Assembly (NCBI GenBank): GCA_038043025.1
Contig: JBBTCW010000003.1
Span: 1 to 61,109 of the forward strand
Source: Pseudomonadota bacterium
GTDB taxonomy: Bacteria; Pseudomonadota; Gammaproteobacteria; UBA12402
DNA length: 61,109 nucleotides
Direction of reading: 5' to 3'
Both the position numbers and the translations under genes were made by a program. Shown piece after piece: positions 6,701-60,350 of the stretch (within the stretch, counting starts at the first letter, position 1; each line of letters opens with the position of its first letter). Below the pieces are notes generated by a model. That model searched no databases and was not told the DNA's origin. It worked only from the letters and a program-made list of their open reading frames with translations.

Positions 6701-7960
6701 ATGAATTTAGCAGAACTAAAGACAAAACCGCTATCAGAACTTGTTCAAATGGCAGATGACATGAAGATCGAGCAGATTGGTCGCATGCGCAAACAAGAAG
6801 TTATTTTTAAAATTCTCAAAGAACATGCGGCGAGTGGAGCCGATATTTTTGGAGATGGCGTATTAGAAATTTTGCCAGATGGATTTGGTTTTTTGCGTTC
6901 CGCCGATGGATCTTATTTAGCGGGGCCGGATGATATTTATGTGTCGCCCAGCCAGATTCGACGATTCAATTTACATACGGGTGATACGATTGAAGGGAAG
7001 ATTCGGCCGCCGAAAGAGAGTGAACGTTATTTTGCGATGTTACAGGTGGACAGTATTAATTTTGATAAGCCTGAAAATGCGAAAAACAAATTCTTATTCG
7101 AAAATTTAACGCCACTCTTTGCCAACGAGCGTTTTGTGATGCAGCGTGGCAATGGCAGTACTGAAGATTTATCTGCGCGCATCATCGATTTGGTTGCGCC
7201 GTTCGGCAAGGGACAGCGTGGATTGATTGTTTCACCGCCGAAGGCTGGTAAAACTATGATACTGCAAAATATTGCGCATTCGATTTCACATAATTATCCC
7301 GATGCGCATTTGATTGTTTTGTTGATTGATGAGCGTCCAGAAGAAGTCACCGAAATGCGTCGTTCCGTGCGCGGAGAGGTGGTGGCGAGTACATTTGATG
7401 AGCCCGCGAATCGTCACGTGCAAGTGGCTGAAATGGTCATTGAAAAAGCGAAACGTTTAGTTGAGCATAAAGCAGACGTGGTGATTTTATTAGATTCGAT
7501 TACTCGTTTGGCTCGCGCGTATAACACCGTTATTCCAGCATCAGGGAAAGTGTTAACCGGTGGTGTGGATGCCAATGCCTTGCAACGACCGAAACGTTTT
7601 TTTGGTGCAGCACGTAACATCGAGGAAGGCGGCAGTTTGACGATTTTAGCAACAGCCTTGATTGAAACGGGTTCCAAGATGGACGATGTTATTTACGAAG
7701 AATTCAAAGGTACCGGTAACATGGAACTACATTTGGATCGTCGTATCTCCGAAAAACGCGTTTACCCAGCGATTAATATTAATCGTTCAGGTACGCGCCG
7801 TGAAGAGTTGTTGGTAGGCGCCGCTGAACTACAAAAGGTGTGGATATTGCGCAAGTTATTGCATCCGATGGATGAACTTGCTGCCATCGAATTCTTAATC
7901 GATCGATTGCTCACGTCAAAAACAAACGAAGAGTTCTTTGAAGCGATGAAGCGCGGGTAA
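6701..7960 (+). CDS. rho: Transcription termination factor Rho
   Basis: [27 protein letters not shown] and [11 protein letters not shown]; 419 aa. Confidence 0.99.
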
Positions 7961-8007
7961 GGGTGCTTGTTCGCATGAGTTTTGAGAAACGAAGCATCCA
8001 GAACGTT

Positions 8008-8166
8008 GTCATCCCGCGACTTGATCGCGGGATCCAGAAAAATTTATATTAAAGATTATAATAACGGAATACCGTTATTATAATCACTGGATACCGGCTT
8101 TCGCCGGTCTGACGAAAGTCTTGATGCCGCGGTTAAAACGCTTATGCGGTTAAACCGCGGCATGAC
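8008..8166. repeat. Cluster of CGTC-type REP / RPE-like palindromes plus a perfect 14-bp-stem hairpin between convergent rho and rpoH
   Basis: GTCATCCCGCGACTTGATCGCGGGATCCAG (8008-8037); GATTATAATAACGG-AATA-CCGTTATTATAATC (8054-8085); CTGGATACCGGCTTTCGCCGGTCTGAC (8087-8113); GATGCCGCGG...CCGCGGCATGAC (8123-8166). Confidence 0.8.
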
Positions 8167-8174
8167 AGCCTTGC

Positions 8175-9032
8175 TTAGGCTGCAACACGCATCAATGATT
8201 TCAACTTCTTAATCGCAGCTAGTTCGAGTTGGCGAACGCGTTCAATAGAAACGTTAAACTGTGTGGCAAGATCTTGTAGGGTTACTTTTGATTCGGTAAG
8301 CCAACGTGCCTGAATAATAGTTTGACTGCGATTATCTAATTTTTGAATCGCGATCATTAATTGTTTTTGATTGTCTTGTTCGGCATCAGTGATTTCTACT
8401 AATTGCGCAGGATTTTGTGATTGATTCGTTAAATAGTGAACTGGCGCAGAAAAATCATTCTCATCTTCTGCATCAAACGCGGCATCATGCGCGTTGAGAC
8501 GTTGCTCCATTTCACGCACCGTTTCGGGTTTTACATTTAATGTTCGCGCGACGTCATCGATTTCTTGTTTTGTAAACCAGCCTAAGCGTTTTTTTGATTT
8601 GCGCAAATTAAAAAATAATTTGCGTTGGGCTTTGGTCGTGGCGATCTTTACAATGCGCCAATTTTTTAGAATAAATTCATGTATTTCGGCTTTAATCCAA
8701 TGCACGGCAAATGACACCAAGCGGACACCCATTGATGGATCAAACCGTTTCACGGCTTTCATCAAGCCTACATTACCTTCTTGAATTAAATCAGCCAATG
8801 CTAAACCATAACCCATATAATTTTTTGCTACTTTGGCGACAAAACGCAAATGCGTTAAAACGAGCTTTCTGGCGGCTTCGATATCATTACTTTCACGCAA
8901 GCGTATTGCCAGCGCACACTCTTCCTCGGTGGATAGCATGGGCAAGCCATAGATGCGCTGCAGATAGCCATCCAGACTGCCCAGGCTGCCAATGGGCAGC
9001 GTCATATCGATTGTTTGTAATTGTGTACTCAT
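8175..9032 (-). CDS. rpoH: RNA polymerase sigma-32 factor
   Basis: [19 protein letters not shown]; RpoH box QRKLFFNLR; follows ftsYEX; start placed at ATG 9032. Confidence 0.97.
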
Positions 9033-9040
9033 GACCAACC

Positions 9041-9049
9041 ATTATAGCA
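9041..9049 (-). promoter_or_regulatory. Extended -10 promoter of rpoH (TGcTATAAT)
   Basis: Minus strand reads TGCTATAAT, 8 nt before the ATG, with no Shine-Dalgarno. Confidence 0.55.
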
Positions 9050-9081
9050 ATTTGACCGAATTTGTGAACATAATTTGCATC

Positions 9082-9256
9082 CGAGCTCTGAGCTGCTAAT
9101 GTGCAAAAAATATACTTGCCAGCTCTGAGCTGCTGAGAGCTAGTCATGGCAAGGGTTTTACTCCCCCCTCGCAGCTCTGAGCGGCTGAGAAACGCGCGCG
9201 CAGCTCTGAGCTGCCGAAATCCAGTCGTAGCAAGGAGTATAGCAGCTCAGAGCTGC
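9082..9256. repeat. Five copies of the 15-bp palindrome GCAGCTCWGAGCTGC
   Basis: Copies start at 9082, 9119, 9171, 9200 and 9242 in the ftsX-rpoH spacer. Confidence 0.9.
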
Positions 9257-29366: not shown

Positions 29367-29906
29367 CCCTTGTGAGTGAATGATAAATGCAGCCGCTTCC
29401 GCCAAATCATTTTTTACGGCGACTGTTTTTATAACATCCGGATTTTTGTCTAATGTTTCTTTCCCGTGACCGGTTAAGACAAGAATCTTTTTGCACGCTT
29501 TCGCGGCGTCTAAATCTCGCTTTGAATCGCCAATCGCATAGACGTTTTTTAAATTGATCGCATAATCTTTTTTAATTTGATCGAACAAACCGCTTTTCGG
29601 TTTTCGGCATTTGCAATGATCATCAGGTGTGTGCGGACAAAAATAAATTTTATCAATACGGCCGCCGTATTTTTTTAATGTGCGCTCCATTTTTTGATGA
29701 ATTTTATTGAGGGTTTCTAACGAGAAAAGCCCTCGACCTACGCCGGATTGATTCGACGCAATCACCACTGTAAATCCCGCTTGATTTAATTGCGCAATGG
29801 CTTCTAAGCTGCCAGGAATCGGGATCCATTCATCGGGCGATTTGATATACGCAGCGGATTCCTTATTAATGACGCCATCACGATCGAGAATAATTAATTT
29901 TTTCAT
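29310..29906 (-). CDS. gmhB: D,D-heptose 1,7-bisphosphate phosphatase
   Basis: LDRDGVIN, SNQSG.GRG, CPH.P...C.CRKP and IGDS..D; follows glyS. Confidence 0.93.
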   Translation of the reverse strand: MKKLIILDRDGVINKESAAYIKSPDEWIPIPGSLEAIAQLNQAGFTVVIASNQSGVGRGLFSLETLNKIHQKMERTLKKYGGRIDKIYFCPHTPDDHCKCRKPKSGLFDQIKKDYAINLKNVYAIGDSKRDLDAAKACKKILVLTGHGKETLDKNPDVIKTVAVKNDLAEAAAFIIHSQGLMQPKQTKQNIHQLHRWT

Positions 29907-32005
29907 GATGCGCCAATCTGCAATAAAGAAATGTCGGCGACTTTTAAGAAGAGTTCGCGCAGTTTTACCAAAAGCGCTAATCGATTTTGTTGTAGCTTTG
30001 GATCCTCGTCCATCACCATGACCGTTTCGAAAAATCGATCGACGGGGTCGCGCAATTGTGCAAGATCAATTAATAATCCAGTGTAATCACAATTTTTTTC
30101 AAATGCGGCAACCGTTTCAATTCTTTTGCTGATGTCGCGCGCGAGTTGAATTTCGGCCGATTCTTTCAAGAGATCCATTTTAAATACATGCTTTAATATA
30201 CCCGCTTCATTTTTAATAAGTATGTTTTTAACGCGCTTGTTAGCGGCAGCTAAACTTTCTGCTTCGGGTAACGTCGCAAAATGTTGAACGGCTTTTAGAC
30301 GCGCATGAAATAAAACTAAATCTTCATGCCAAATTGGCCCGCCGAGCGTTGCATGATATTGGTCGAGCGTAAAGCCGTTTTGCCCAACCCACGTTGCTAA
30401 GCGATCTAAAATAAATGTGCCCAGCGTGACGCCGAGATGTTCTTTGGGTAGCGGATGATCGGAATGTTTGTAAATGTTATAGGTTTCTTTGATTAACTCA
30501 TTTAAATTTAAATGCAATTCATGTTCAATCATGATACGAATCAACCCGAATGCAGCGCGACGCAATGCAAACGGATCTTTGGTGCCCGTTGGAATTTGAT
30601 TGATGCCAAACATACCGACGAGCGTGTCAATGCGATCCGCAATGGCGAGCGCTTGGCCGGTCGCTGTTTGGGGTAAGTCATCTGTCGCAAAACGCGGCAT
30701 ATATTGCTCTTTTAATGCGATCGCGACGGTTTCAGGCTCGTTGTCATGCCGTGCATAGTATTCACCCATGATGCCTTGTAGTTCGGGAAATTCTCCGACC
30801 ATGCTCGTCATCAGATCTGTTTTAGACAGCAAAGCAGCGCGTTCAATATCAGTGATTTTAAAGTGTAATTGTTTTGCAATATAACCCGACAATTTTTGTA
30901 GACGTTGCGTTTTATTTAATAATGTCCCGAGTTGTTTTTGAAAAACCACATGACCTAATTGATCGATATAAATGTTGAGCGGATGTTTTAAGTCTGTTTC
31001 ATAAAAGAATTTTGCATCCGAAAGTCGTGCGCGCATCACGCGCTCATTGCCGCTGATAATATATTTTGTGCGATACGGTTTGATGTTGGCGATCGCAATA
31101 AAATTTGGTAATAACTGATTGGATTGATCAACAACTGGGAAACAGCGCTGATGTTTTTCCATCGAGGCGATTAATACTTCTTTGGGTAAGCTTAAAAAAT
31201 CGTTTGAAAATTTAGCTAACAGCGCCATCGGCCATTCAGTGGATGCGGTCACTTCATCTAATAACGCGTCGTTGATTACCGGGGAGCCAATGCGCTGGGC
31301 TGCATGAATGGTTTGTGTTCGAATGATGTTTTTGCGTTCGTTGAAATCCACGTACACATGCGCATATTTTTTAAGTGTTTTAATATAGGCTTTTGCGGAT
31401 GAAATGGTAATCGGCGAGGTGTTATAAAAACGATGGCCTTGTGTTTTGTTGCTCGTCGTTTTTTCTAAAATGATGCCTGGCACAATTTTTCGGCCATACA
31501 TCAAAATAATGCCATGCACCGGCCGTTCAAAAGTAATGTCATGATCGCCCCAGCGCATTTGTTTTTTAATGGGTAATTTTTTTATTGCTTCGGTGACAAT
31601 GTCTGGCAAACAATCAAAAATTGATTTACCGGGTTCGGTTTTTTTGAAATATAAACATTCACCTTTTGGCGTATCGAGTCGCTCGAGTTGTTCGACAGAT
31701 ACGTCACAGGATTTTGCAAACCCTGTTGCTTGTGGTTTGGGCGCACCGTCGGGAAAAAAAGAGATGGACGACAACGGCCCTTTGCGTTCAATGACTTGAT
31801 CGGGTTGTTTGGCCGTAACGTTATTTAAAATAACGACTAATCGGCGTGGCGTGGCGAGCAATGCGTCGTCGAGTTCATACTCGAAGCCCGATGTTTTTAA
31901 ACCTTCAGCAATAGATTCTTTAAGGCTCATGGCGAGCCGCGTCAAATTTTTTGGCGGTAGTTCTTCGGTTAAAATTTCGAGCAACAAGTCGGCTTTTTTT
32001 GTCAT
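29903..32005 (-). CDS. glyS: Glycine-tRNA ligase beta subunit
   Basis: [43 protein letters not shown] and KDPFALRR. Confidence 0.98.
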
Positions 32006-32907
32006 GCGGTATCTTTTTTAAGTAATGGAAATCCAAGTGTTTCGCGTGATGTATAATATTGCTCTGCCACCGCTTTGGCGAGCGCGCGAATGCGCAGCAT
32101 ATATTGCTGACGTTCTGTCACCGAAATTGCATGACGCGCATCCAATAAATTAAATGCGTGCGATGCGTTTAATATCATTTCATAAGCGGGTAAGGGCAAT
32201 TTGTTTTCAAGCAAGGTTTTGCATTGTAGCTCATCAGTATCAAATTGTTTTAATAAGGCGTTGACATCGGCATATTCAAAATTATAAGCAGACATTTCAA
32301 TTTCATTTTGTTTAAAAATATCGCCGTAGGTAACGCGTGGGGTATGTGACCACAAAATATCAAACATGCTGTCGACGTTTTGTAAATACATAGCGATGCG
32401 TTCGAGTCCGTAGGTGAGTTCGCCGGTGACCGGCTTGCAGTCTAAGCCACCCACTTGTTGAAAATAAGTAAATTGTGAAATTTCCATGCCATCCAAGCAA
32501 ACTTCCCATCCGAGTCCCCAGGCGCCGAGCGTGGGCGATTCCCAATTGTCTTCCATAAATCGGATGTCACATTGTTTGGGATCGATGCCAAGTGCGCTGA
32601 TGGAGTGTAAATAAAGGGCTTGAATATCGTCGGGCGAGGGTTTTAGAATGACTTGAAATTGATAGTAATGTTGTGCGCGATTGGGGTTATCGCCATAGCG
32701 GCCATCGGTCGGTCGGCGGCAAGGTTGTACAAATGCTGTGCGCCAAGGTTCAGGTCCGATTGCGCGCAAGAACGTCGATGGATGAAAAGTCCCTGCGCCG
32801 ACGGGCATATCGAGCGGTTGTGTGATCATGCAGCCTTGCTTAGCCCAATAGGTTTGGAGAGCCAAGATCATATCCTGAAAGGTCTGAGGTTTTTTTGATG
32901 TAAACAC
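32002..32907 (-). CDS. glyQ: Glycine-tRNA ligase alpha subunit
   Basis: [39 protein letters not shown] and TYGLER; GTG start after AGGA preferred. Confidence 0.97.
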
Positions 32908-32971
32908 CGATGAATTTCCTATTATCAATACGATGGTTGCATTATAACGGATTCGGTTTTAAGTACAATGC

Positions 32972-33028
32972 GCAGCTCTGAGCTGACGCAAGGCAGACTG
33001 TGACTGGGTTATATCAGCTCAGAGCTGT
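32972..33028. repeat. 57-bp palindrome pair R1
   Basis: GCAGCTCTGAGCTGA-cgcaaggcagactgtgactgggttata-TCAGCTCAGAGCTGT. Confidence 0.9.
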
Positions 33029-33036
33029 GTGGACGA

Positions 33037-34704
33037 TTAGTGAGGGCTGGGTGATCTTGCTAAAAGCGATATGTGTGGGTCATCACTTGCCTGGGCGGGT
33101 TGACGGCGTCCTTGAAATGCTGCTCCGGCCGCCCCAGCACCAGCAGCGAGTTCATCTTCCTCGTCGGACAGCGCCGCAGTACCACCTTCATCACCTAAGT
33201 GGTGTCGTACAAAAGCAGAGCTCTCTTCTGGAATTCTAGGTTGTTCTTGTTTGAGCAAAGATGTAATGATTGGCATTTTGTTTTGAATAAATACATCCTC
33301 GTTTGCATGCATAAGATCAATGGCTCTTTGTAAACCAGACGTTGGAGGTAGCTCGCGCAAATCTGCTACGCCCTCATGTTGTACGAGTATGAGTCGATAA
33401 CGATCGATGGTTAAGGCATAGGCGAGCAACTGTTGATTTTGTAAAATATTATCGGTCATGTATATGAAAAATTTATCGTGGGTTGTTTCAGCAGTTGTTT
33501 CAGCTAACCATGTTTCGCATATGTGATGTGCGATAACAGATCGATCTTGAGGTTTAAGGTCTGTTTGGAACATTTTCCATAACAACTCTAATTTATTTTT
33601 AGGCGAATCGAATTCGATTTTAAATAGAGGGCTCTTTGCACATAACTTAGAGATGCGCTCTGATTTCCAGCCTACCAGATTACAAAAATGATCCCACCAG
33701 GATGGTTTGACTTGTTTCCAAAATGATTTAACGCGCAATATGACAGTGGCACGTACCGCAGAAATCCCGTGAAGCTCAGTTTCATTAGGATGGTCTAATA
33801 TATGTTTAATTATGTTTTTAATATTTTGTCGAAGTAGAAAACTTTTGTGTGATATTTTTTGTATTTTGTGGTACCCATAAAGATAGAGATGCTGGTGCCG
33901 GTTTGGCAAAAGACTACCAAACGCATAGGCTTCTTGCCCTAATTTTTCTTCAGCTGCGACGATATTGAGCTCCATTGTTGGATCGAGTGGTCGCGCCAAT
34001 AAGCCATCAAAAAAGGCCTTGTGTTCGTCCTGTTCCAATGTCGCAAAAATTTGTTCGGCATTCGTCAAGCTGCGTCTGCCCCAGATTGCTTTATGCTTCT
34101 CGAATAACTGTTTATTTGCGCGCTTAAATTTTTTGTACACGAGTGTCGCTAGTATTGGGTCGCCATCGAGTAAATTTTTAATGGCACGTTGTGCTTGTTG
34201 TTGCATTGGGTCTTCATATTGCTTGTCTTCGGATAATATTGCCGCGTGCAAATTGGGATTGTATTCTAGTGTTGCGATAAATTTCTCGCGGAATTTTTCT
34301 TTTTCCTCTTTTTTTTCTAGCGTGTGGATTCGAACTAATAAAGTTTTAGCAAAACCGATCGAAAAATAATTTCCAGAGGGGCCTTTGTTGAGTGATAGGG
34401 CTGTCCAGTTATTGAGAAGAATCTGTAGGTCTAAGTCGGGTTCTATTAATATACGTTCTCTCATTCGACTGGCGATCTCACCCGTGAGTGTATTGCGATC
34501 CCAATGGGATAGAGCATGAATATCAGCGAGGAGTAAGTTTAAATTGTCCGACGAGACATTGCCATCTTTTAGCGCGCCAATGCGTCGAGCGAGCGCTTGC
34601 ATGTCCTTCGAGCGATCGATTATTTTGAATTTTTTTCGGACAGACCCTTTTCGTGCGTCATAGTCTGCAATAAAGGCGAGTAACTCAGCTTTTTGAATGG
34701 GCAT
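33037..34704 (-). CDS. Hypothetical helical protein, paralog A (candidate effector)
   Basis: 555-aa ORF with AGGA RBS; clear paralog of 34830-36548; acidic patch and GAGAAGAA tract near the C-terminus. Confidence 0.75.
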   Translation of the reverse strand: MPIQKAELLAFIADYDARKGSVRKKFKIIDRSKDMQALARRIGALKDGNVSSDNLNLLLADIHALSHWDRNTLTGEIASRMRERILIEPDLDLQILLNNWTALSLNKGPSGNYFSIGFAKTLLVRIHTLEKKEEKEKFREKFIATLEYNPNLHAAILSEDKQYEDPMQQQAQRAIKNLLDGDPILATLVYKKFKRANKQLFEKHKAIWGRRSLTNAEQIFATLEQDEHKAFFDGLLARPLDPTMELNIVAAEEKLGQEAYAFGSLLPNRHQHLYLYGYHKIQKISHKSFLLRQNIKNIIKHILDHPNETELHGISAVRATVILRVKSFWKQVKPSWWDHFCNLVGWKSERISKLCAKSPLFKIEFDSPKNKLELLWKMFQTDLKPQDRSVIAHHICETWLAETTAETTHDKFFIYMTDNILQNQQLLAYALTIDRYRLILVQHEGVADLRELPPTSGLQRAIDLMHANEDVFIQNKMPIITSLLKQEQPRIPEESSAFVRHHLGDEGGTAALSDEEDELAAGAGAAGAAFQGRRQPAQASDDPHISLLARSPSPH

Positions 34705-34764
34705 TTTTATTTTCCTATTTTCTTCGAGGAATGATAAAGAATATTAATTTAAAAAGCAAGCAGC

Positions 34765-34821
34765 GCAGCTCTGAGCTGCTGCAAGGCAGGCTGTGACTGG
34801 GTTATAGCAGCTCAGAGCTGT
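34765..34821. repeat. 57-bp palindrome pair R2 (duplication junction)
   Basis: GCAGCTCTGAGCTGC-tgcaaggcaggctgtgactgggttata-GCAGCTCAGAGCTGT. Confidence 0.9.
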
Positions 34822-34829
34822 GTGGACGA

Positions 34830-36548
34830 TTAGCAGCGAGGGCGGGGGGCGCCGTCGTCGGCTAAAAGCCACCTACGTTCATCCGGGGGCGCGGCAGATT
34901 GATGATGTTCTTGAAATGCTGCCCCGGCCGCCCCAGCTCCAGCACCAGCTCCAGCCCAAACACCAACATTACCCCAATTACCCCAATCAGCGGCGGGTTT
35001 ATCATATTCCTCGTCGGACAGCGCAGCAGTACCACCTTCATCACCTAAGTGGTGTCGTACAAAAGCAGAGCTCTGTCCTGGACTTCTAAGTCTTGCTTGT
35101 TCGCCGAACAAAGACTCAATGATTTCCCTTTTTTCTTGAATAAATGGATCCTGGGTGCCCCACATACTATCAATGGCAGTTTTTAACTTAGATGTTGGAG
35201 ATAGATCCTGCAAATCTGCTACGCCCTCATGTTGTACGAGTATGAGTCGATAGCGATCGATGGTTAAGGCATAGGCGAGCAACCGTTGACTTTGTAAAGT
35301 ATTCTTGGTCATGTGTGAGAAAAAATTATCCTGAGTTGTTTCAGCTAACAATGTTTCGCATAAGTGATGTGCGATAATGGATCGATCTTGAGGTTTAAGC
35401 TTTGTGTGGAACGTTTTCCATAACGGCTCTAATTTATCTTTAGGCGAATCGAGTTCGATTCCAAATAGAGGGCTATTTTTACGTAACTTATCAGAGGTGC
35501 TAGCTAAGCGTTCCAACCGACTAAGAAACTTATCCCACCAGGATGGCTTGGCTTGTTTCCAAAATGATTTAACGTGCAATATGATAGTGGCGAGTGCCGC
35601 AGGAATCTGGGGAATCTCCTCTATCGTTTGAGAAAGGCCTAATTTAGTTTTAATATCTATTGGTAAGTCTTGATCATCGAACATTGTTAAGCGCGCCTGA
35701 AAATAGGGATGCAGATCCGTATTCCGACATGAGCCAGTAGAAAAATAACGATGGATTGCTTTCCATAATTTTCCTTCAGTTGCTGCGACGATATCGAGCT
35801 CTCTTGTTGGATCGAGTGGTCGCATCAATAAGTTATCAAAAAAGGCATTGTGTTCTCTCGGTTTCAATGTCGCCAAAATTTGTTCGGCATTCGTCAAGCT
35901 ACGTCTGCCCCAGATTGCTTTATGCTTCTCGAATAACGGTTTATTTGCGCGCTTAAATTTTTTGTACATGAGTGTCGCCAGTATTGGGTCGCCATCGAGT
36001 AAATTTTTAATGGCACGTTGTGCTTGTTGTTGCATTGGGTCTTCATATTGCTTGTCTTCGGATAATATTGCCTCACGCAACTTGGGATTGTATTCTAGTA
36101 TTGCGATAAATTCTTTTCGGAATTTTTCTTTTTCACTTTTGCTTCTTAGATTGCTGATTCGAGCTAATAAAGTTTTAGCAAAACCGATCGAAAAACAATC
36201 TTCAGGGGCGCCTTTGCCGAGCGATAGAGCCGTCCAGTTCTCGAGAAAAATATGTTTGTAGTTGTAGCTTTCGATGTCGAGTTCTTTTAATATACATTCT
36301 CTCATGTCATTGGCGATCTTACCCGTGAGTGTATTGCGATCCCAACGGGATAGCGTAAGAATATGACGGAAGAGGGGTATTAAATTGTTCGGCGTGACAT
36401 TGTCATCAGGAAGCATTCCTAGATCGTCAATGCGTTGAGCGAGTGCTTGCATGCCCCGCGATCGATTGTTTAATTTTTTTCGGATAGCCCCTTTTTGTTT
36501 GTCATAGTCTGCAATAAAGGCGAGTAACTCAGCTTTTCGAATGGGCAT
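34830..36548 (-). CDS. Hypothetical helical protein, paralog B (candidate effector)
   Basis: 572-aa ORF sharing near-identical blocks with 33037-34704. Confidence 0.75.
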   Translation of the reverse strand: MPIRKAELLAFIADYDKQKGAIRKKLNNRSRGMQALAQRIDDLGMLPDDNVTPNNLIPLFRHILTLSRWDRNTLTGKIANDMRECILKELDIESYNYKHIFLENWTALSLGKGAPEDCFSIGFAKTLLARISNLRSKSEKEKFRKEFIAILEYNPKLREAILSEDKQYEDPMQQQAQRAIKNLLDGDPILATLMYKKFKRANKPLFEKHKAIWGRRSLTNAEQILATLKPREHNAFFDNLLMRPLDPTRELDIVAATEGKLWKAIHRYFSTGSCRNTDLHPYFQARLTMFDDQDLPIDIKTKLGLSQTIEEIPQIPAALATIILHVKSFWKQAKPSWWDKFLSRLERLASTSDKLRKNSPLFGIELDSPKDKLEPLWKTFHTKLKPQDRSIIAHHLCETLLAETTQDNFFSHMTKNTLQSQRLLAYALTIDRYRLILVQHEGVADLQDLSPTSKLKTAIDSMWGTQDPFIQEKREIIESLFGEQARLRSPGQSSAFVRHHLGDEGGTAALSDEEYDKPAADWGNWGNVGVWAGAGAGAGAAGAAFQEHHQSAAPPDERRWLLADDGAPRPRC

Positions 36549-36614
36549 TTTTATTATCCTATTTTTTTTTCAAGTACAGGAATTATACAGCATATTATTT
36601 AAATAGCAAGCAGA

Positions 36615-36671
36615 ACAGCTCTGAGCTGCTATAATCCAGTCACAGCCTGCCTTGTAGCAGCTCAGAGCTGC
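36615..36671. repeat. 57-bp palindrome pair R3 (inner segment inverted relative to R1/R2)
   Basis: ACAGCTCTGAGCTGC-tataatccagtcacagcctgccttgta-GCAGCTCAGAGCTGC. Confidence 0.9.
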
Positions 36672-36676
36672 GCAGG

Positions 36677-36704
36677 TTGATATTTGAACAGGATTTGATA
36701 TGAT
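36677..36704 (+). promoter_or_regulatory. Sigma70-type promoter of the HAD gene (TTGATA-16-TATGAT with TG extension)
   Basis: -35 at 36677-36682, TG at 36696-36697, -10 at 36699-36704, ATG 6 nt later. Confidence 0.55.
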
Positions 36705-36710
36705 GGATTT

Positions 36711-37349
36711 ATGCGATTAGTTTTATTTGATTTGGATGGCACCATTCTTGAAAATAAAAGCGCCGGCACGGCGTTTTCTTGGTATTTGTTCAAAAAAGGT
36801 AAATTCGGCATTAAACAAACTTTTTATTCATTGTGGTTTCTATGTCGATGGATTTTTAAATTTAAAACAGAAATTTTTATCAAAGATAAAGCATATTTTG
36901 CGGGCTTGTCTGAAGATGAAATCTTTGTTTTAGGGGCACAGTTTGTTAAAGAGCATCTGTTACCACGCGTGCGACCTTTTATGAAAGATCGTATCGCCGC
37001 GCATCGTCAGGCCGGCGATATTATCGTATTGTTAACGGGCGCGCCCAATTTTATCGCGAATGAAATTGCATCGCGTTTAGGTATTCATAAAGTGGCCGCA
37101 TCTGAATACAATACGAAAAATGGAATTTTTACTGCATTGCCGCCCAATCAACATTTATTTAAGCGAGAAAAATTAACAGCGGCGAAAAAATTATGTGATC
37201 AATATCGCTTGCAGTTATCTGATTGTGTTGCTTATGGCAATTCATTTAATGACCGATTTTTATTAGAGGCGGTTCATGTTGCGATTGCCGTAACGCCGGA
37301 TCGACGGCTTCGTCGATTGGCGAAAAGACAGCATTGGGATATCTTATAA
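36711..37349 (+). CDS. HAD-IB (SerB-like) hydrolase
   Basis: FDLDGT motif I, LLTGA motif II, K motif III and YGNSFND motif IV. Confidence 0.85.
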   Translation: MRLVLFDLDGTILENKSAGTAFSWYLFKKGKFGIKQTFYSLWFLCRWIFKFKTEIFIKDKAYFAGLSEDEIFVLGAQFVKEHLLPRVRPFMKDRIAAHRQAGDIIVLLTGAPNFIANEIASRLGIHKVAASEYNTKNGIFTALPPNQHLFKREKLTAAKKLCDQYRLQLSDCVAYGNSFNDRFLLEAVHVAIAVTPDRRLRRLAKRQHWDIL

Positions 37350-54948: not shown

Positions 54949-55398
54949 ATGTCCCACACATTAATTCTTTCCATCGGAAATTTATTACGCCATGACGATG
55001 GTGTTGGTCCGACCGTATTAAAATTATTATCTGAATATCCAAAGCCGAACGTTGATTATGTGAATGGCGGCACGGACGGATTGGCGCTGATTGATTTAAT
55101 TTCGTCATATAAAAAAGTGACCATTATTGACGCGGTGAACATGCAAATGCCGCCGGGAACGATAAAGCGATTCAAGCCAAAAGACGCCAAGATTCATGTA
55201 AAATCGGATGTGCTTTCGACACATGGTTTTGGTTTAGTCGAAGTGTTAGACTTGTTGGTGCAATTAGGAGTTGAGACAGAAATAGATATTATTGGCATTC
55301 AGCCAAAAGATATTTCGTTAGGCGAAGGGTTAAGCGATTGCATACGAGATTGTCTCAACGACGTCATCACCCTCATCGCAGCTCCAGCTCAGAGCTGA
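54949..55398 (+). CDS. Hydrogenase maturation endopeptidase
   Basis: IGNLLR.DDGVG, GGT.G, IIDAV, STHG.GL, GIQP and GLS; the last codons and stop come from the palindromic repeat. Confidence 0.92.
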   Translation: MSHTLILSIGNLLRHDDGVGPTVLKLLSEYPKPNVDYVNGGTDGLALIDLISSYKKVTIIDAVNMQMPPGTIKRFKPKDAKIHVKSDVLSTHGFGLVEVLDLLVQLGVETEIDIIGIQPKDISLGEGLSDCIRDCLNDVITLIAAPAQS

Positions 55399-55504
55399 CG
55401 AAATCGGGTGGCGGGAGAGGCTTGCTATGACTCTCTTGCAGCAGCTCAGAGCTGCGTGGATTAAAATTTTGTATGATATTGCTTACATCGCAGCTCAGAG
55501 CTGC
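55378..55504. repeat. Three-copy palindrome array (spacings 57 and 49 bp)
   Basis: Copies at 55384, 55441 and 55490, plus an extra half-site at 55378; homologous to 58425-58545. Confidence 0.9.
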
Positions 55505-58424: not shown

Positions 58425-58587
58425 GCAGCTCAGAGCTGCGAAAAGTAGGTGTCGGGAAGGGCTTGCTATGACTGCTTTCCAGAAGCTCAGAGCTGCGTGG
58501 ATTAAAATTTTGTATGATATTGCTTACATCGCAGCTCTGAGCTGCTAAAAACCAGTCACAGCCTGGCTCTCATTGGCTCAGAGCTGC
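58425..58587. repeat. Four-copy palindrome array (spacings 57, 49 and 42 bp)
   Basis: Copies at 58425, 58482, 58531 and 58573. Confidence 0.9.
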
Positions 58588-60278: not shown

Positions 60279-60350
60279 GCAGCTCTGAGCTGCGAGGATT
60301 GACCCCTTTCTATTCCTTGCCCCGCCTGCTTTGTAGCAGCTCAGAGCTGC
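60279..60350. repeat. Palindrome pair (57-bp spacing)
   Basis: Perfect copies at 60279 and 60336, each followed by GAGGATT; the second continues GGATTAAAATTTTGTA as in the 55.4 and 58.5 kb arrays. Confidence 0.9.

What the first reader, a model, noticed from the sequence alone, without database searches (positions are those of the whole stretch)
32972..36671. Tandem gene duplication whose breakpoint maps to the 15-bp palindrome
Seen: the layout is R1-geneA-R2-geneB-R3. R2's left flank (ATTTAAAAAGCAAGCAG) matches R3's left flank (ATTTAAATAGCAAGCAG). R2's inner 27 nt and right flank (GAGCTGTGTGGACGATTAG) match R1. R3's inner segment is the reverse complement of R2's (25/27 identical). R2 is therefore an R3/R1 hybrid with the crossover at the left arm, and the only direct homology there is about 15 bp. 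Inference: the palindrome acts as a recombination site that duplicates gene-plus-promoter cassettes. The homology is short for efficient RecA exchange, which hints at a dedicated enzyme. An alternative is crossover between co-oriented elements followed by inversion of R3's core, which would also imply activity at the arms.
Basis: partly seen in the sequence, partly recalled or inferred. Interest (0 to 1): 0.72.

Follow-up and report, generated by a model that had tools for sequence, protein, structure and literature searches.

The report
Gene duplicated between flanking REPIN hairpins
Two neighbouring copies of a gene of unknown function arose when two small palindromic repeats that flank the single gene in a sister species recombined unequally, a known way for bacteria to duplicate genes and one that needs no special enzyme.

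Summary
R1 (32973-33027), R2 (34766-34820) and R3 (36616-36670) are 55-nt hairpin repeats. They bracket two paralogous genes, A and B, which share 62% amino-acid identity. R2 carries R3's left flank and R1's core and right flank.

The repeats are not a local oddity. They belong to a genus-restricted family with about 82 loci in this genome. Each is a doublet of the 13-nt palindrome CAGCTCWGAGCTG, which is the architecture of a REPIN. The genome also has one REP-associated tyrosine transposase (RAYT) gene that is itself flanked by these repeats.

A congener, G001, keeps the state before duplication, with the same neighbours on both sides: repeat, single gene, repeat. The duplication came after the two species split. 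Contigs from two other studies span all three repeats without a difference.

The best reading is unequal exchange between the two flanking repeats, as already described for REP sequences. I cannot tell whether the crossover used only the roughly 16-nt arm, or a full-length co-oriented repeat followed by core flips. Core flips do occur: 4 of 16 orthologous repeats are inverted between the two species.

No evidence calls for a dedicated enzyme.

This is a new member of a known kind, of moderate interest.

The parts
32973..33027 (.). R1: a 55-nt REPIN-like hairpin repeat, 9 nt downstream of gene A's stop codon. Its core points the same way as R2's.
   Evidence: As single-stranded DNA the 61-nt stretch 32970-33030 folds at -18.8 kcal/mol (z -4.5) on the + strand and -16.1 (z -3.8) on the - strand.
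33037..34704 (-). Gene A, 555 aa. It matches no Pfam or NCBIfam family and is a paralog of gene B.
   Evidence: The Atlas model is of low confidence (pLDDT 0.50) and gave no usable hit.
34705..34765 (-). Upstream region of gene A, homologous to that of gene B. The hexamers TTGCTT and TATCAT were read by eye and fall below the scan tool's threshold.
   Evidence: Alignment. The scan lists no site here.
34766..34820 (.). R2: the join-point repeat. It has R3's left flank and R1's core and right flank.
   Evidence: Contigs from X1 and X2 span it with 0 differences.
34830..36548 (-). Gene B, 572 aa, 62% identical to gene A.
36582..36609 (-). Promoter-like site of gene B, TTGCTA-16-TATAAT (10 of 12). 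It starts 7 nt from R3.
   Evidence: The scan as a whole is not above chance: 7 sites found against 7.6 expected.
36616..36670 (.). R3: the same repeat with its core inverted relative to R1 and R2. It points the same way as the upstream repeat of the congener.
   Evidence: (25 direct against 15 reverse-complement of 29, compared with G001).
32970..34762 (.). Duplicated unit 1: R1, gene A and its upstream region.
   Evidence: (77.0% identity over 1962 columns).
34763..36612 (.). Duplicated unit 2: R2, gene B and its upstream region.
32002..32928 (-). glyQ, the conserved neighbour on the R1 side. It is not part of the duplication.
   Evidence: PF02091, 482 bits. The flank aligns to G001 at 89%.
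36711..37349 (+). HAD-family hydrolase gene, the conserved neighbour on the R3 side. It is not part of the duplication.
   Evidence: PF12710, 87 bits. The flank aligns to G001 at 91%.

Best explanation
R1, R2 and R3 are copies of a genus-specific family of REP doublets that form hairpins, which is the architecture of a REPIN. The family comes with one cognate RAYT gene elsewhere in the genome.

The ancestor had one gene with such a repeat on each side: one 9 nt after its stop codon and one just before its promoter. After the split from the congener G001, an unequal exchange between the downstream repeat of one chromosome copy and the upstream repeat of the other produced the present layout, repeat, gene A, hybrid repeat, gene B, repeat. 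The exchange could have been sister-strand recombination or a replication template switch. The two copies then diverged quickly and in different segments.

Shown:
- the hybrid structure of R2;
- the progenitor layout in G001;
- the timing of the duplication;
- that the repeats belong to a dispersed family of REP doublets with an associated RAYT.

Inferred:
- the mechanism of the exchange;
- whether the crossover used only the roughly 13-16 nt arm shared by oppositely oriented copies. I give that about even odds. The other possibility is the full 55 nt of then co-oriented copies, followed by core inversions.

Ordinary recombination or replication slippage at a hairpin-forming repeat is enough. 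No dedicated enzyme is needed.

The confidence given here is for unequal exchange between the two flanking repeats, whichever part of the repeat the crossover used.
For: 1. Join point. Homology between the units starts at GCG plus the left arm of R1 and R2 and ends at the left arm of R2 and R3. The outer flanks are unrelated.

2. Progenitor.
- Gene A's protein matched in 2 of 41 genomes searched, G000 and G001. G001 has one copy.
- In G001 that copy (L004 7477-9096) lies between repeats at 7176-7230 and 9106-9160, with ORFs of the neighbours' sizes around them.
- The outer flanks align to window 36671-36920 at 91% and to 32726-32970 at 89%.

3. Timing. Sites where A = B but O differs number 99, against 54 for A = O and 50 for B = O, where O is the G001 ortholog.

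4. Family.
- The arm motif has 161 hits in 82 loci.
- There are 31 elements of 55 nt in G000 and 24 in G001.
- 26 of the 31 in G000 lie outside long ORFs.
- The hairpins fold with z from -3.7 to -5.7.
- The exact pattern occurs in 2 of 14 genomes of the family. Among named species genomes it occurs in one MAG only.
- There is a single Y1_Tnp gene. It passes NCBIfam NF047646 'REP-associated tyrosine transposase' with 87 bits against a cut-off of 80. It is flanked by the repeats and is conserved at the same place in G001.

5. Exchange at these repeats elsewhere. At G000 C76 a gene sits between two repeats with identical cores, while G001 has one repeat and no gene at the same site. This is the deletion or insertion counterpart of a duplication.

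6. Precedent. REP sequences at join points of tandem duplications (Shyamala et al. 1990) and recombination between REP sequences forming F'128 (Kofoid et al. 2003). I saw both only as references and in-text citations, in PMC7661048 and PMC1428787.
Against: - The crossover point cannot be placed more finely than the arm. R2's core is closer to the reverse complement of R3 (27 of 29) than to R1 (25 of 29), so it does not mark R1 as the donor of the core.
- The orientation call for R1 against G001's downstream repeat is weak: 18 reverse-complement against 13 direct of 29.
- With only two genomes in the genus and no outgroup that carries the gene, the ancestral orientation is not fixed.
- The repeat is not a general duplication site. 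Only 2 of 27 adjacent paralog pairs have it at a unit boundary, and the second one (C5) has no repeat at its far boundary.
- In E. coli stress-induced amplification, REP sequences were at only 4 junctions and were judged not to be preferred (PMC1428787, passages read).
- The contigs laid cannot show rare variants.
Confidence: 0.8

Rival explanations
1. The crossover took place between full-length, co-oriented repeats of 55 nt by ordinary RecA-type unequal exchange. The cores of R1 and R2 were inverted afterwards, or one was inverted and the other converted from it. It differs from my best explanation only in where the crossover lay and in the order of events, so it is a variant within that explanation and its confidence is counted inside the 0.8 given there.
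For: - In G001 the two flanking repeats are co-oriented, and 26 of 29 core bases are identical by my count of the sequences printed.
- All three other pairs of the 55-nt type in G000 with identical cores are co-oriented.
- Core inversion at orthologous sites does occur: 4 of 16 anchored comparisons, including an exact 29 of 29 reverse-complement match at C76.
- 55 nt is a far better substrate for homologous exchange than 13-16 nt (my own knowledge of minimal homology lengths, not tested here).
Against: - Judged against G001, R3 keeps the ancestral orientation (25 against 15) and R1 is the inverted one.
- This route therefore needs two inversions, or one inversion plus a conversion, after the duplication. 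The arm-crossover route needs one inversion.
- No intermediate state has been seen.
Confidence: 0.35
2. A dedicated enzyme, either the RAYT or an unassembled transposase whose end resembles the arm, cuts and rejoins DNA at the arms. It thereby duplicates, deletes, inserts or flips what lies between the repeats.
For: - One RAYT gene is present, flanked by the repeats and conserved in both species.
- The 7-nt loop GCTGTGA is conserved across copies, with G at its first position in 48 of 54 and C at its second in 52 of 54. That would fit recognition of a specific sequence.
- Three genes lie between 55-nt repeats with identical cores, and two more lie between near-identical composite 57-spaced elements. 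None of the five was found in G001.
- An IS-like repeat end abuts or mimics the arm at about 10 contig ends.
Against: - No step of the duplication requires it.
- RAYTs are HUH enzymes that act on single-stranded hairpins (PMC3333891 and PMC3479197, abstracts seen in the listing). They are not known to exchange duplex DNA between two sites.
- Only 2 of 27 adjacent paralog pairs involve the repeat.
- No IS110-type transposase was found. The genome is a draft whose repeats are poorly assembled, so this is weak evidence.
- Spacer inversion between inverted repeats is explained by polymerase template switching (PMC8604942, abstract).
Confidence: 0.08
3. The coincidence is accidental. An unrelated illegitimate event duplicated the gene, and one of the outer repeats (R1 or R3) was inserted later next to a unit boundary.
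For: REPINs are thought to be mobile (PMC3116915, abstract read). The C5 duplication has the repeat at one boundary only.
Against: - Both outer repeats are already present at the same two sites around the single gene in G001, with homologous flanks.
- There is about one repeat locus per 20 kb (82 loci in 1.62 Mb). Two boundaries landing exactly on arms by chance is therefore very unlikely.
Confidence: 0.02
4. The tandem copy or the R2 junction is an assembly artefact.
For: The genome is a draft of 79 contigs. Repeats break its assembly.
Against: - The copies differ at 23% of DNA positions.
- Contigs of X1 and X2 cross R2 from 34664 to 35055 with 0 differences, and likewise cross R1 and R3.
Confidence: 0.01

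Closest known systems
REP-mediated tandem duplications and rearrangements in enterobacteria. References: Shyamala, Schneider and Ames 1990, EMBO J 9:939; Kofoid et al. 2003, J Bacteriol 185:660. Both were seen only as references and in-text citations. The 1990 paper itself is not held.
   Same: - A short extragenic palindromic repeat lies on both sides of the unit.
- The join point is a hybrid copy of the repeat.
- The homology used is shorter than, or equal to, the repeat.
   Different: - This is a fixed, old duplication of one gene in a wild uncultured lineage. It was not selected in the laboratory.
- The progenitor layout survives in a sister species.
- The repeats are doublets of 55 nt, and the two parental copies now point in opposite directions.
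REPINs and RAYTs of Pseudomonas fluorescens SBW25 (Bertels and Rainey 2011: PMC3116915, abstract and section 11 read; PMC3337134, passages read).
   Same: - Two imperfect REP palindromes lie in inverted orientation around a spacer and form a hairpin.
- A central asymmetric base marks the orientation of each REP: T or A here, TT or AA in SBW25.
- There are tens of extragenic copies.
- There is one RAYT gene flanked by the repeats.
- Inheritance within the lineage is vertical.
   Different: - The REP sequence is different and the doublet is shorter (55 nt).
- A second, direct arrangement with arms 57 nt apart (start to start) and a TTACAAAATTTTAATCC-like tail is about as common.
- I found no clean insertion polymorphism between the two species.
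- The word 'inversion' has 0 occurrences in the REPIN-centred papers listed, and 'flip' has 0 occurrences in PMC3337134.
Spacer inversion between short inverted repeats by polymerase template switching (PMC8604942, abstract only), and small hairpin-loop inversions in chloroplast genomes (listing only).
   Same: The loop, together with the unpaired stem positions between two perfect inverted arms, is replaced by its reverse complement while both flanks stay in place.
   Different: Here it is seen in a bacterial REP-doublet family, at 4 of 16 orthologous sites between two congeners.

Membership tests
REP / REPIN | A short imperfect palindrome repeated many times, mostly outside genes | tested here: met
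   - 161 arm hits in 82 loci.
- 22 hits in the window against 0 in shuffles.
- 26 of 31 elements of 55 nt lie outside ORFs of 200 aa or more, by a crude ORF call.
REP / REPIN | Two REPs in inverted orientation with a spacer, predicted to form a hairpin | tested here: met
   - DNA folds of -16.1 to -21.0 kcal/mol, with z from -3.7 to -5.7.
- The arm columns that never vary (3-6 and 8-11) pair in 54 of 54 distinct copies. Inner stem columns show both T-A (30) and G-C (9) at column pair 15/41.
REP / REPIN | A cognate single-copy RAYT gene next to copies of the repeat | tested here: met
   - One PF01797 hit in the genome.
- NF047646 scores 87 bits against a cut-off of 80.
- The 55-nt repeat ends 52 nt before the ATG, and 57-spaced repeats lie after the stop codon.
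REP / REPIN | Signs of transposition, such as insertion polymorphism or excision products | tested here: inconclusive
   - None of the G001 repeats whose two flanks mapped together in G000 faced a clean empty site.
- Contigs cannot show rare excision products.
REP-mediated tandem duplication | The join point is a hybrid of the two repeats that bound the unit | tested here: met
   Alignment of the two units with their flanks, family D5 and pair I1.
REP-mediated tandem duplication | A single-copy progenitor with a repeat on both sides | tested here: met
   Congener G001, locus L004.
REP-mediated tandem duplication | Dependence on, or independence from, RecA or gyrase | not testable with these tools
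   This needs genetics in a surrogate host.
Site-specific recombination site with a dedicated recombinase (integron-like or IS110-like) | Recurrent junctions of paralog arrays at the same site | tested here: not met
   2 of 27 adjacent paralog pairs have the repeat at a unit boundary, and one of those two has it on one side only.
Site-specific recombination site with a dedicated recombinase (integron-like or IS110-like) | A recombinase gene of such a family in the genome | tested here: inconclusive
   - PF02371 (IS110 type): no hit.
- Tyrosine and serine recombinases were not searched.
- IS bodies are missing from the draft.
Intrinsic terminator | A G+C-rich hairpin followed by a run of T | tested here: not met
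   The scan lists no terminator-like site at R1, R2 or R3.

The most novel reading that the evidence does not exclude
In this genus, pairs of identical REP doublets mark gene cassettes. DNA is inserted at, deleted from, duplicated between and flipped within these hairpins by an activity that works at the arms. That activity would be the RAYT or processing of hairpins or cruciforms. The repeat family would then drive turnover of lineage-specific genes, including kinase-like, SET-domain and ankyrin-like ones.

The evidence does not exclude this:
- Five genes in G000 lie between near-identical repeats, and none of the five was found in G001.
- At the three loci that can be compared, G001 has one repeat, or half of one, and no gene.
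Probability: 0.1. Interest if true: 0.75.

Novelty: new member of a known kind. Interest (0 to 1): 0.38.

Why it matters
This is a clean natural example of how small palindromic repeats shape gene content. It offers the before state in one species, the after state in its sister, and a join point readable to within about 16 nt.

It also shows two things about the repeats themselves. Their cores flip in place between species. And near-identical copies of them bracket genes that the sister species lacks. Both points bear on whether REP doublets are passive recombination substrates or active sites, and both can be tested with a simple reporter.

It does not reveal a new recombination system.

Tried and rejected
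- The search for related loci with gene A's protein found no relative in named genomes.
- Rfam gave no match in the window.
- Genes A and B matched nothing in Pfam or NCBIfam. The protein Atlas holds a low-confidence model (pLDDT 0.50) with no usable hit and TM-scores under 0.5. I therefore give no function, and I made no structure prediction of my own.
- IS110-type transposase (PF02371): none found.
- I looked for the body of the IS-like repeat that abuts the arm at contig ends. The metagenome scan gave one match, again at a contig end, so the question is left open.
- Contigs laid on the locus show no single-copy, triplicated or flipped variant. Contigs drop rare variants, so this says nothing about their absence. 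The joint '36670 to 32700' and the loose ends at the arms come from other copies of the repeat family.
- The G001 loci for the C2 and C39 cassettes end at contig breaks, so there is no comparison there.
- I tried to polarise the coaBC cassette. CoaBC is 47-55% identical to relatives in the family, against 52-59% for GltX, which looks vertical. Its neighbours differ in the two genera I examined, and in five genera coaBC and gltX lie on different contigs. Insertion and deletion therefore cannot be told apart.
- The 1990 EMBO J paper is not held.
This report is the same with that field filled in.


Full report
**What is at the locus**

On the minus strand lie two paralogous genes. Gene A is 33037-34704 (555 aa) and gene B is 34830-36548 (572 aa). 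They share 62% identity over 537 aligned residues. Neither matches a Pfam or NCBIfam family. They sit between glyQ-glyS (29903-32928) and a HAD-family hydrolase gene (36711-37349).

Three 55-nt repeats bracket them: R1 32973-33027, R2 34766-34820 and R3 36616-36670. Each has a left arm CAGCTCTGAGCTG, a 29-nt core and a right arm CAGCTCAGAGCTG. An alignment of the two units with their flanks shows the following.
- Homology starts at GCG plus the left arm (32970 and 34763).
- It runs through the gene and its roughly 60-nt upstream region at 41-97 identical columns per 100.
- It ends at the left arm of the next repeat (34762 and 36612).
- Left of R1 and right of R3 the sequences are unrelated to R2's flanks.

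R3's core is the reverse complement of R2's, 27 of 29 against 17 of 29 direct.

**It is real**

The two copies are 77% identical in DNA, so they are not a doubled assembly. Logan contigs of runs X1 and X2 come from groundwater metagenomes of two studies, one of which may be the source. They cross R1 (32700-33205), R2 (34664-35055) and R3 (36508-36900) with 0 differences. Contigs cannot show rare variants, so nothing can be said about revertants or flipped cores in the population.

**What the repeat is**

*Abundance and distribution.* The arm is not special to this locus.
- It occurs 22 times in the window at one mismatch or fewer, against 0 in 100 shuffles.
- It occurs 161 times in 82 loci of the 1.62-Mb draft genome.
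- There are 31 elements of the 55-nt type in G000 and 24 in the congener G001, counted at three arm mismatches or fewer. The reversed-pattern control gave 0.
- 26 of the 31 in G000 lie outside long ORFs.
- The exact pattern is in 2 of 14 genomes of the family. Among named species-representative genomes it is in 8 stretches of a single MAG, titled 'Gammaproteobacteria bacterium RIFCSPHIGHO2_02_FULL_42_13'.

*Structure.*
- Each arm is itself a palindrome with one asymmetric central base, T or A.
- The 55-nt element is two such arms in inverted orientation, with a further imperfect stem and a conserved 7-nt loop, GCTGTGA in one orientation.
- As single-stranded DNA the three copies fold at -16.1 to -21.0 kcal/mol, with z from -3.7 to -5.7.

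*The associated transposase.*
- The genome has one Y1_Tnp gene, at C51 1439-2053.
- It passes NCBIfam's equivalog model 'REP-associated tyrosine transposase' with 87 bits against a cut-off of 80.
- A 55-nt repeat lies 52 nt before its start codon, and 57-spaced repeats lie after its stop codon.
- It lies between miaA and mutL. G001 has the same locus at 87-92% identity.

This is the architecture described for REPINs and RAYTs: REP doublets in inverted orientation that form hairpins, each REP an imperfect palindrome whose central bases mark its orientation, and a RAYT gene next to a cluster of the repeats (PMC3116915, abstract and section 11; PMC3337134, passages).

**The progenitor survives in the sister species**

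Gene A's protein matched in 2 of 41 genomes searched, its own and G001. G001 has one copy at 57% identity. The large protein search found only the window's own two proteins and one named relative (P0003, 54% identity, a MAG hypothetical protein).

In G001 (locus L004) the single gene is at 7477-9096. It lies between a repeat at 7176-7230 and another at 9106-9160. Around them are ORFs of the sizes of the HAD gene, glyQ and glyS. The outer flanks align to the window at 91% (36671-36920) and 89% (32726-32970). The 9-nt gap between the stop codon and the repeat is the same in gene A, gene B and the G001 gene.

Of the aligned sites, 99 unite A and B against the G001 protein, 54 unite A with it and 50 unite B with it. 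The duplication therefore followed the split of the two species, unless conversion has since homogenised A and B. A and B have diverged in different central segments: A in alignment columns 240-300, B in 300-360.

**How it most likely happened**

A repeat on each side of one gene, and a hybrid repeat at the join, are what unequal exchange between the two repeats produces. REP sequences at the join points of tandem duplications, and REP-REP recombination forming F'128, are in print. I saw Shyamala et al. 1990 and Kofoid et al. 2003 only as citations, in PMC7661048 and PMC1428787; the 1990 paper is not held. PMC1428787 also reports that in stress-induced amplification REP sequences were at only four junctions and were not preferred.

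The open point is where the crossover lay.
- In G000 the outer repeats point in opposite directions, so only the arm is directly homologous. That is 13 nt, or up to about 16 with GCG.
- In G001 the two repeats are co-oriented, and 26 of 29 core bases agree by my count of the sequences printed.
- Compared with G001, R3 keeps its orientation (25 direct against 15 reverse-complement of 29). R1 is the inverted one, but weakly so (18 against 13).
- An arm crossover therefore needs one core inversion in either lineage plus the duplication. A full-length crossover needs the duplication plus two inversions, or one inversion and a conversion.
- Homologous exchange over 55 nt is much easier than over 13-16 nt (my own knowledge). 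I therefore hold the two routes at roughly even odds within the overall explanation.
- R2's core does not decide it. It differs from R1 at 4 positions and from the reverse complement of R3 at 2.

**Core inversion is real and recurrent**

I anchored 16 of the 24 G001 repeats to a G000 repeat through at least one adjacent flank. Eight were dropped: four had no mapped flank, three had flanks that mapped away from any G000 repeat or without an anchor, and one (L035) was a paralogous hit to an already used G000 repeat.

| Result | Count of 16 | Cases |
|---|---|---|
| Same orientation | 10 | not listed |
| Inverted, clear | 2 | C76: 29 of 29 in reverse complement against 22 direct, with both flanks conserved. 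C39 5391: loop 7 of 7 in reverse complement. |
| Inverted, weaker | 2 | R1: 18 against 13. C64 753: 18 against 10, one flank only. |
| Ambiguous | 2 | C3 9201: 16 against 14. C10 9228: 19 against 22. |

At C76 the odd first base of the left arm stays on the left in both species. The breakpoints therefore lie inside the stem. Inversion of the spacer between short inverted repeats by polymerase template switching is a described mutation type (PMC8604942, abstract), so no enzyme is needed for this either.

**Is the repeat a general duplication site?**

No. Of 27 adjacent paralog pairs found by an ORF-against-ORF search, 3 have an arm motif within 400 nt and 2 have it at a unit boundary: this locus and C5. 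The C5 pair is C5 15731-17077 and 17261-18589, both with a Pkinase match. There the composite 57-spaced element lies at the left end of each unit, but no repeat lies at the far boundary.

**A related pattern that I cannot fully explain**

Repeats that lie within 5 kb of each other are often near-identical.
- Cores agree at 29 of 29 at C2, C50 and C76.
- Among 456 non-neighbour pairs the median is 18 and only 3 reach 26 or more.
- Similarity stops at the edges of the repeat.
- Two further pairs of the 57-spaced type behave alike, at C75 and C39.

The five bracketed genes are listed below.

| Locus | Gene between the repeats |
|---|---|
| C2 | ORF with no family, between a pncC-like gene and a recA-like gene (both named by eye) |
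| C50 | coaBC |
| C76 | gene with two ABC_tran domains |
| C75 | ORF with no family, next to a SET-domain gene |
| C39 | weak ankyrin match, below the Pfam cut-off |

None of the five was found in G001, which is 94% complete. The three loci that can be compared show this:
- C76: G001 has one repeat and no gene.
- C50: G001 has half a repeat and no gene.
- C75: G001 has one element, with different DNA on its left.

Deletion between direct repeats in G001, with conversion keeping neighbours alike in G000, explains this. Insertion at a repeat with duplication of the repeat in G000 explains it too. CoaBC looks vertically inherited: 47-55% identity to relatives in the family, against 52-59% for GltX. 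However, in five other genera coaBC and gltX lie on different contigs, and its neighbours differ in the two genera I examined. The direction of change therefore stays open.

**Dedicated enzyme?**

A RAYT exists, and the conserved loop would suit a sequence-specific partner. But nothing ties the RAYT to the duplication, and RAYTs act on single-stranded hairpins (abstracts of PMC3333891 and PMC3479197 in the listing). An IS-like repeat whose end abuts or mimics the arm breaks the assembly at about 10 contig ends. Its body is not assembled and one metagenome scan did not recover it, so its transposase is unknown. No IS110-type gene was found.

**Verdict**

This is a well-documented natural case of duplication mediated by REP doublets, in a newly described genus-specific REP-doublet and RAYT family. 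It is a new member of a known kind. The flips at orthologous sites and the pairs of identical repeats around lineage-specific genes are the parts worth following up.

Noticed in passing
G000 contig C51 1333-2220 (locus L005): The genome's single RAYT gene (1439-2053) lies between miaA and mutL. A 55-nt repeat lies before it and 57-spaced repeats lie after it. G001 has the same arrangement at 87-92% identity.
   Followed up: yes
G000 C2 5871/7348, C50 7905/9282, C76 4260/6031, C75 1722/2831, C39 16843/17704 (loci L010-L014): Single genes lie between two near-identical, co-oriented copies of the repeat. None of the five genes was found in the congener. At the three comparable loci the congener has one repeat, or half of one, and no gene.
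   Followed up: partly
G000 C76 4260-4314 against G001 C33 35405-35459; also G000 C39 5391 and C64 753: The core of the repeat is inverted in place between the two species while the flanks stay conserved. At C76 the match is an exact 29 of 29 in reverse complement.
   Followed up: yes
G000 C5 15644-18659 (locus L015): A second tandem duplication, of a protein-kinase-like gene (59.6% amino-acid identity, 78% DNA identity). The composite repeat lies at the left end of each unit, and no repeat lies at the far boundary.
   Followed up: partly
Window 55385-55503, 58426-58586, 60280-60349 and 9083-9255; many other contigs: A second arrangement of the same arms: direct copies whose starts lie 57 nt apart, followed by a GGATTAAAATTTTGTAA-like tail, often chained with 55-nt elements. 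The pair at 55385 and 58426 is nearly identical over about 62 nt although the two lie 3 kb apart.
   Followed up: no
Contig ends of G000: C2, C19, C47, C51 and C57 (both ends), and C38, C63, C73, C45: An IS-like multi-copy repeat starts right after an arm or an arm-like CAGCTCAGAGGTG and breaks the assembly. Its body and its transposase are not in the draft.
   Followed up: partly
L005 176-331 (G000 C51), with dozens of matches in G001; also L004 about 7290-7470 (G001): Two other dispersed short repeat families. One has dozens of matches in G001. The other looks like a MITE with 12-nt terminal inverted repeats and is inserted between the promoter region and the start codon of the G001 ortholog of genes A and B.
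   Followed up: no
Window 33028-33039 and 34821-34832; L004 9094-9105: The repeat begins exactly 9 nt after the stop codon in gene A, gene B and the G001 ortholog. REP sequences that close to a stop codon have been reported to affect translation in E. coli. I recall this from memory and did not check it here.
   Followed up: no
Window 33780-33930 against 35610-35760, and protein alignment columns 240-360: Genes A and B have each diverged sharply from the G001 ortholog, but in different central segments, while the segments on either side stay 70-88% identical.
   Followed up: partly
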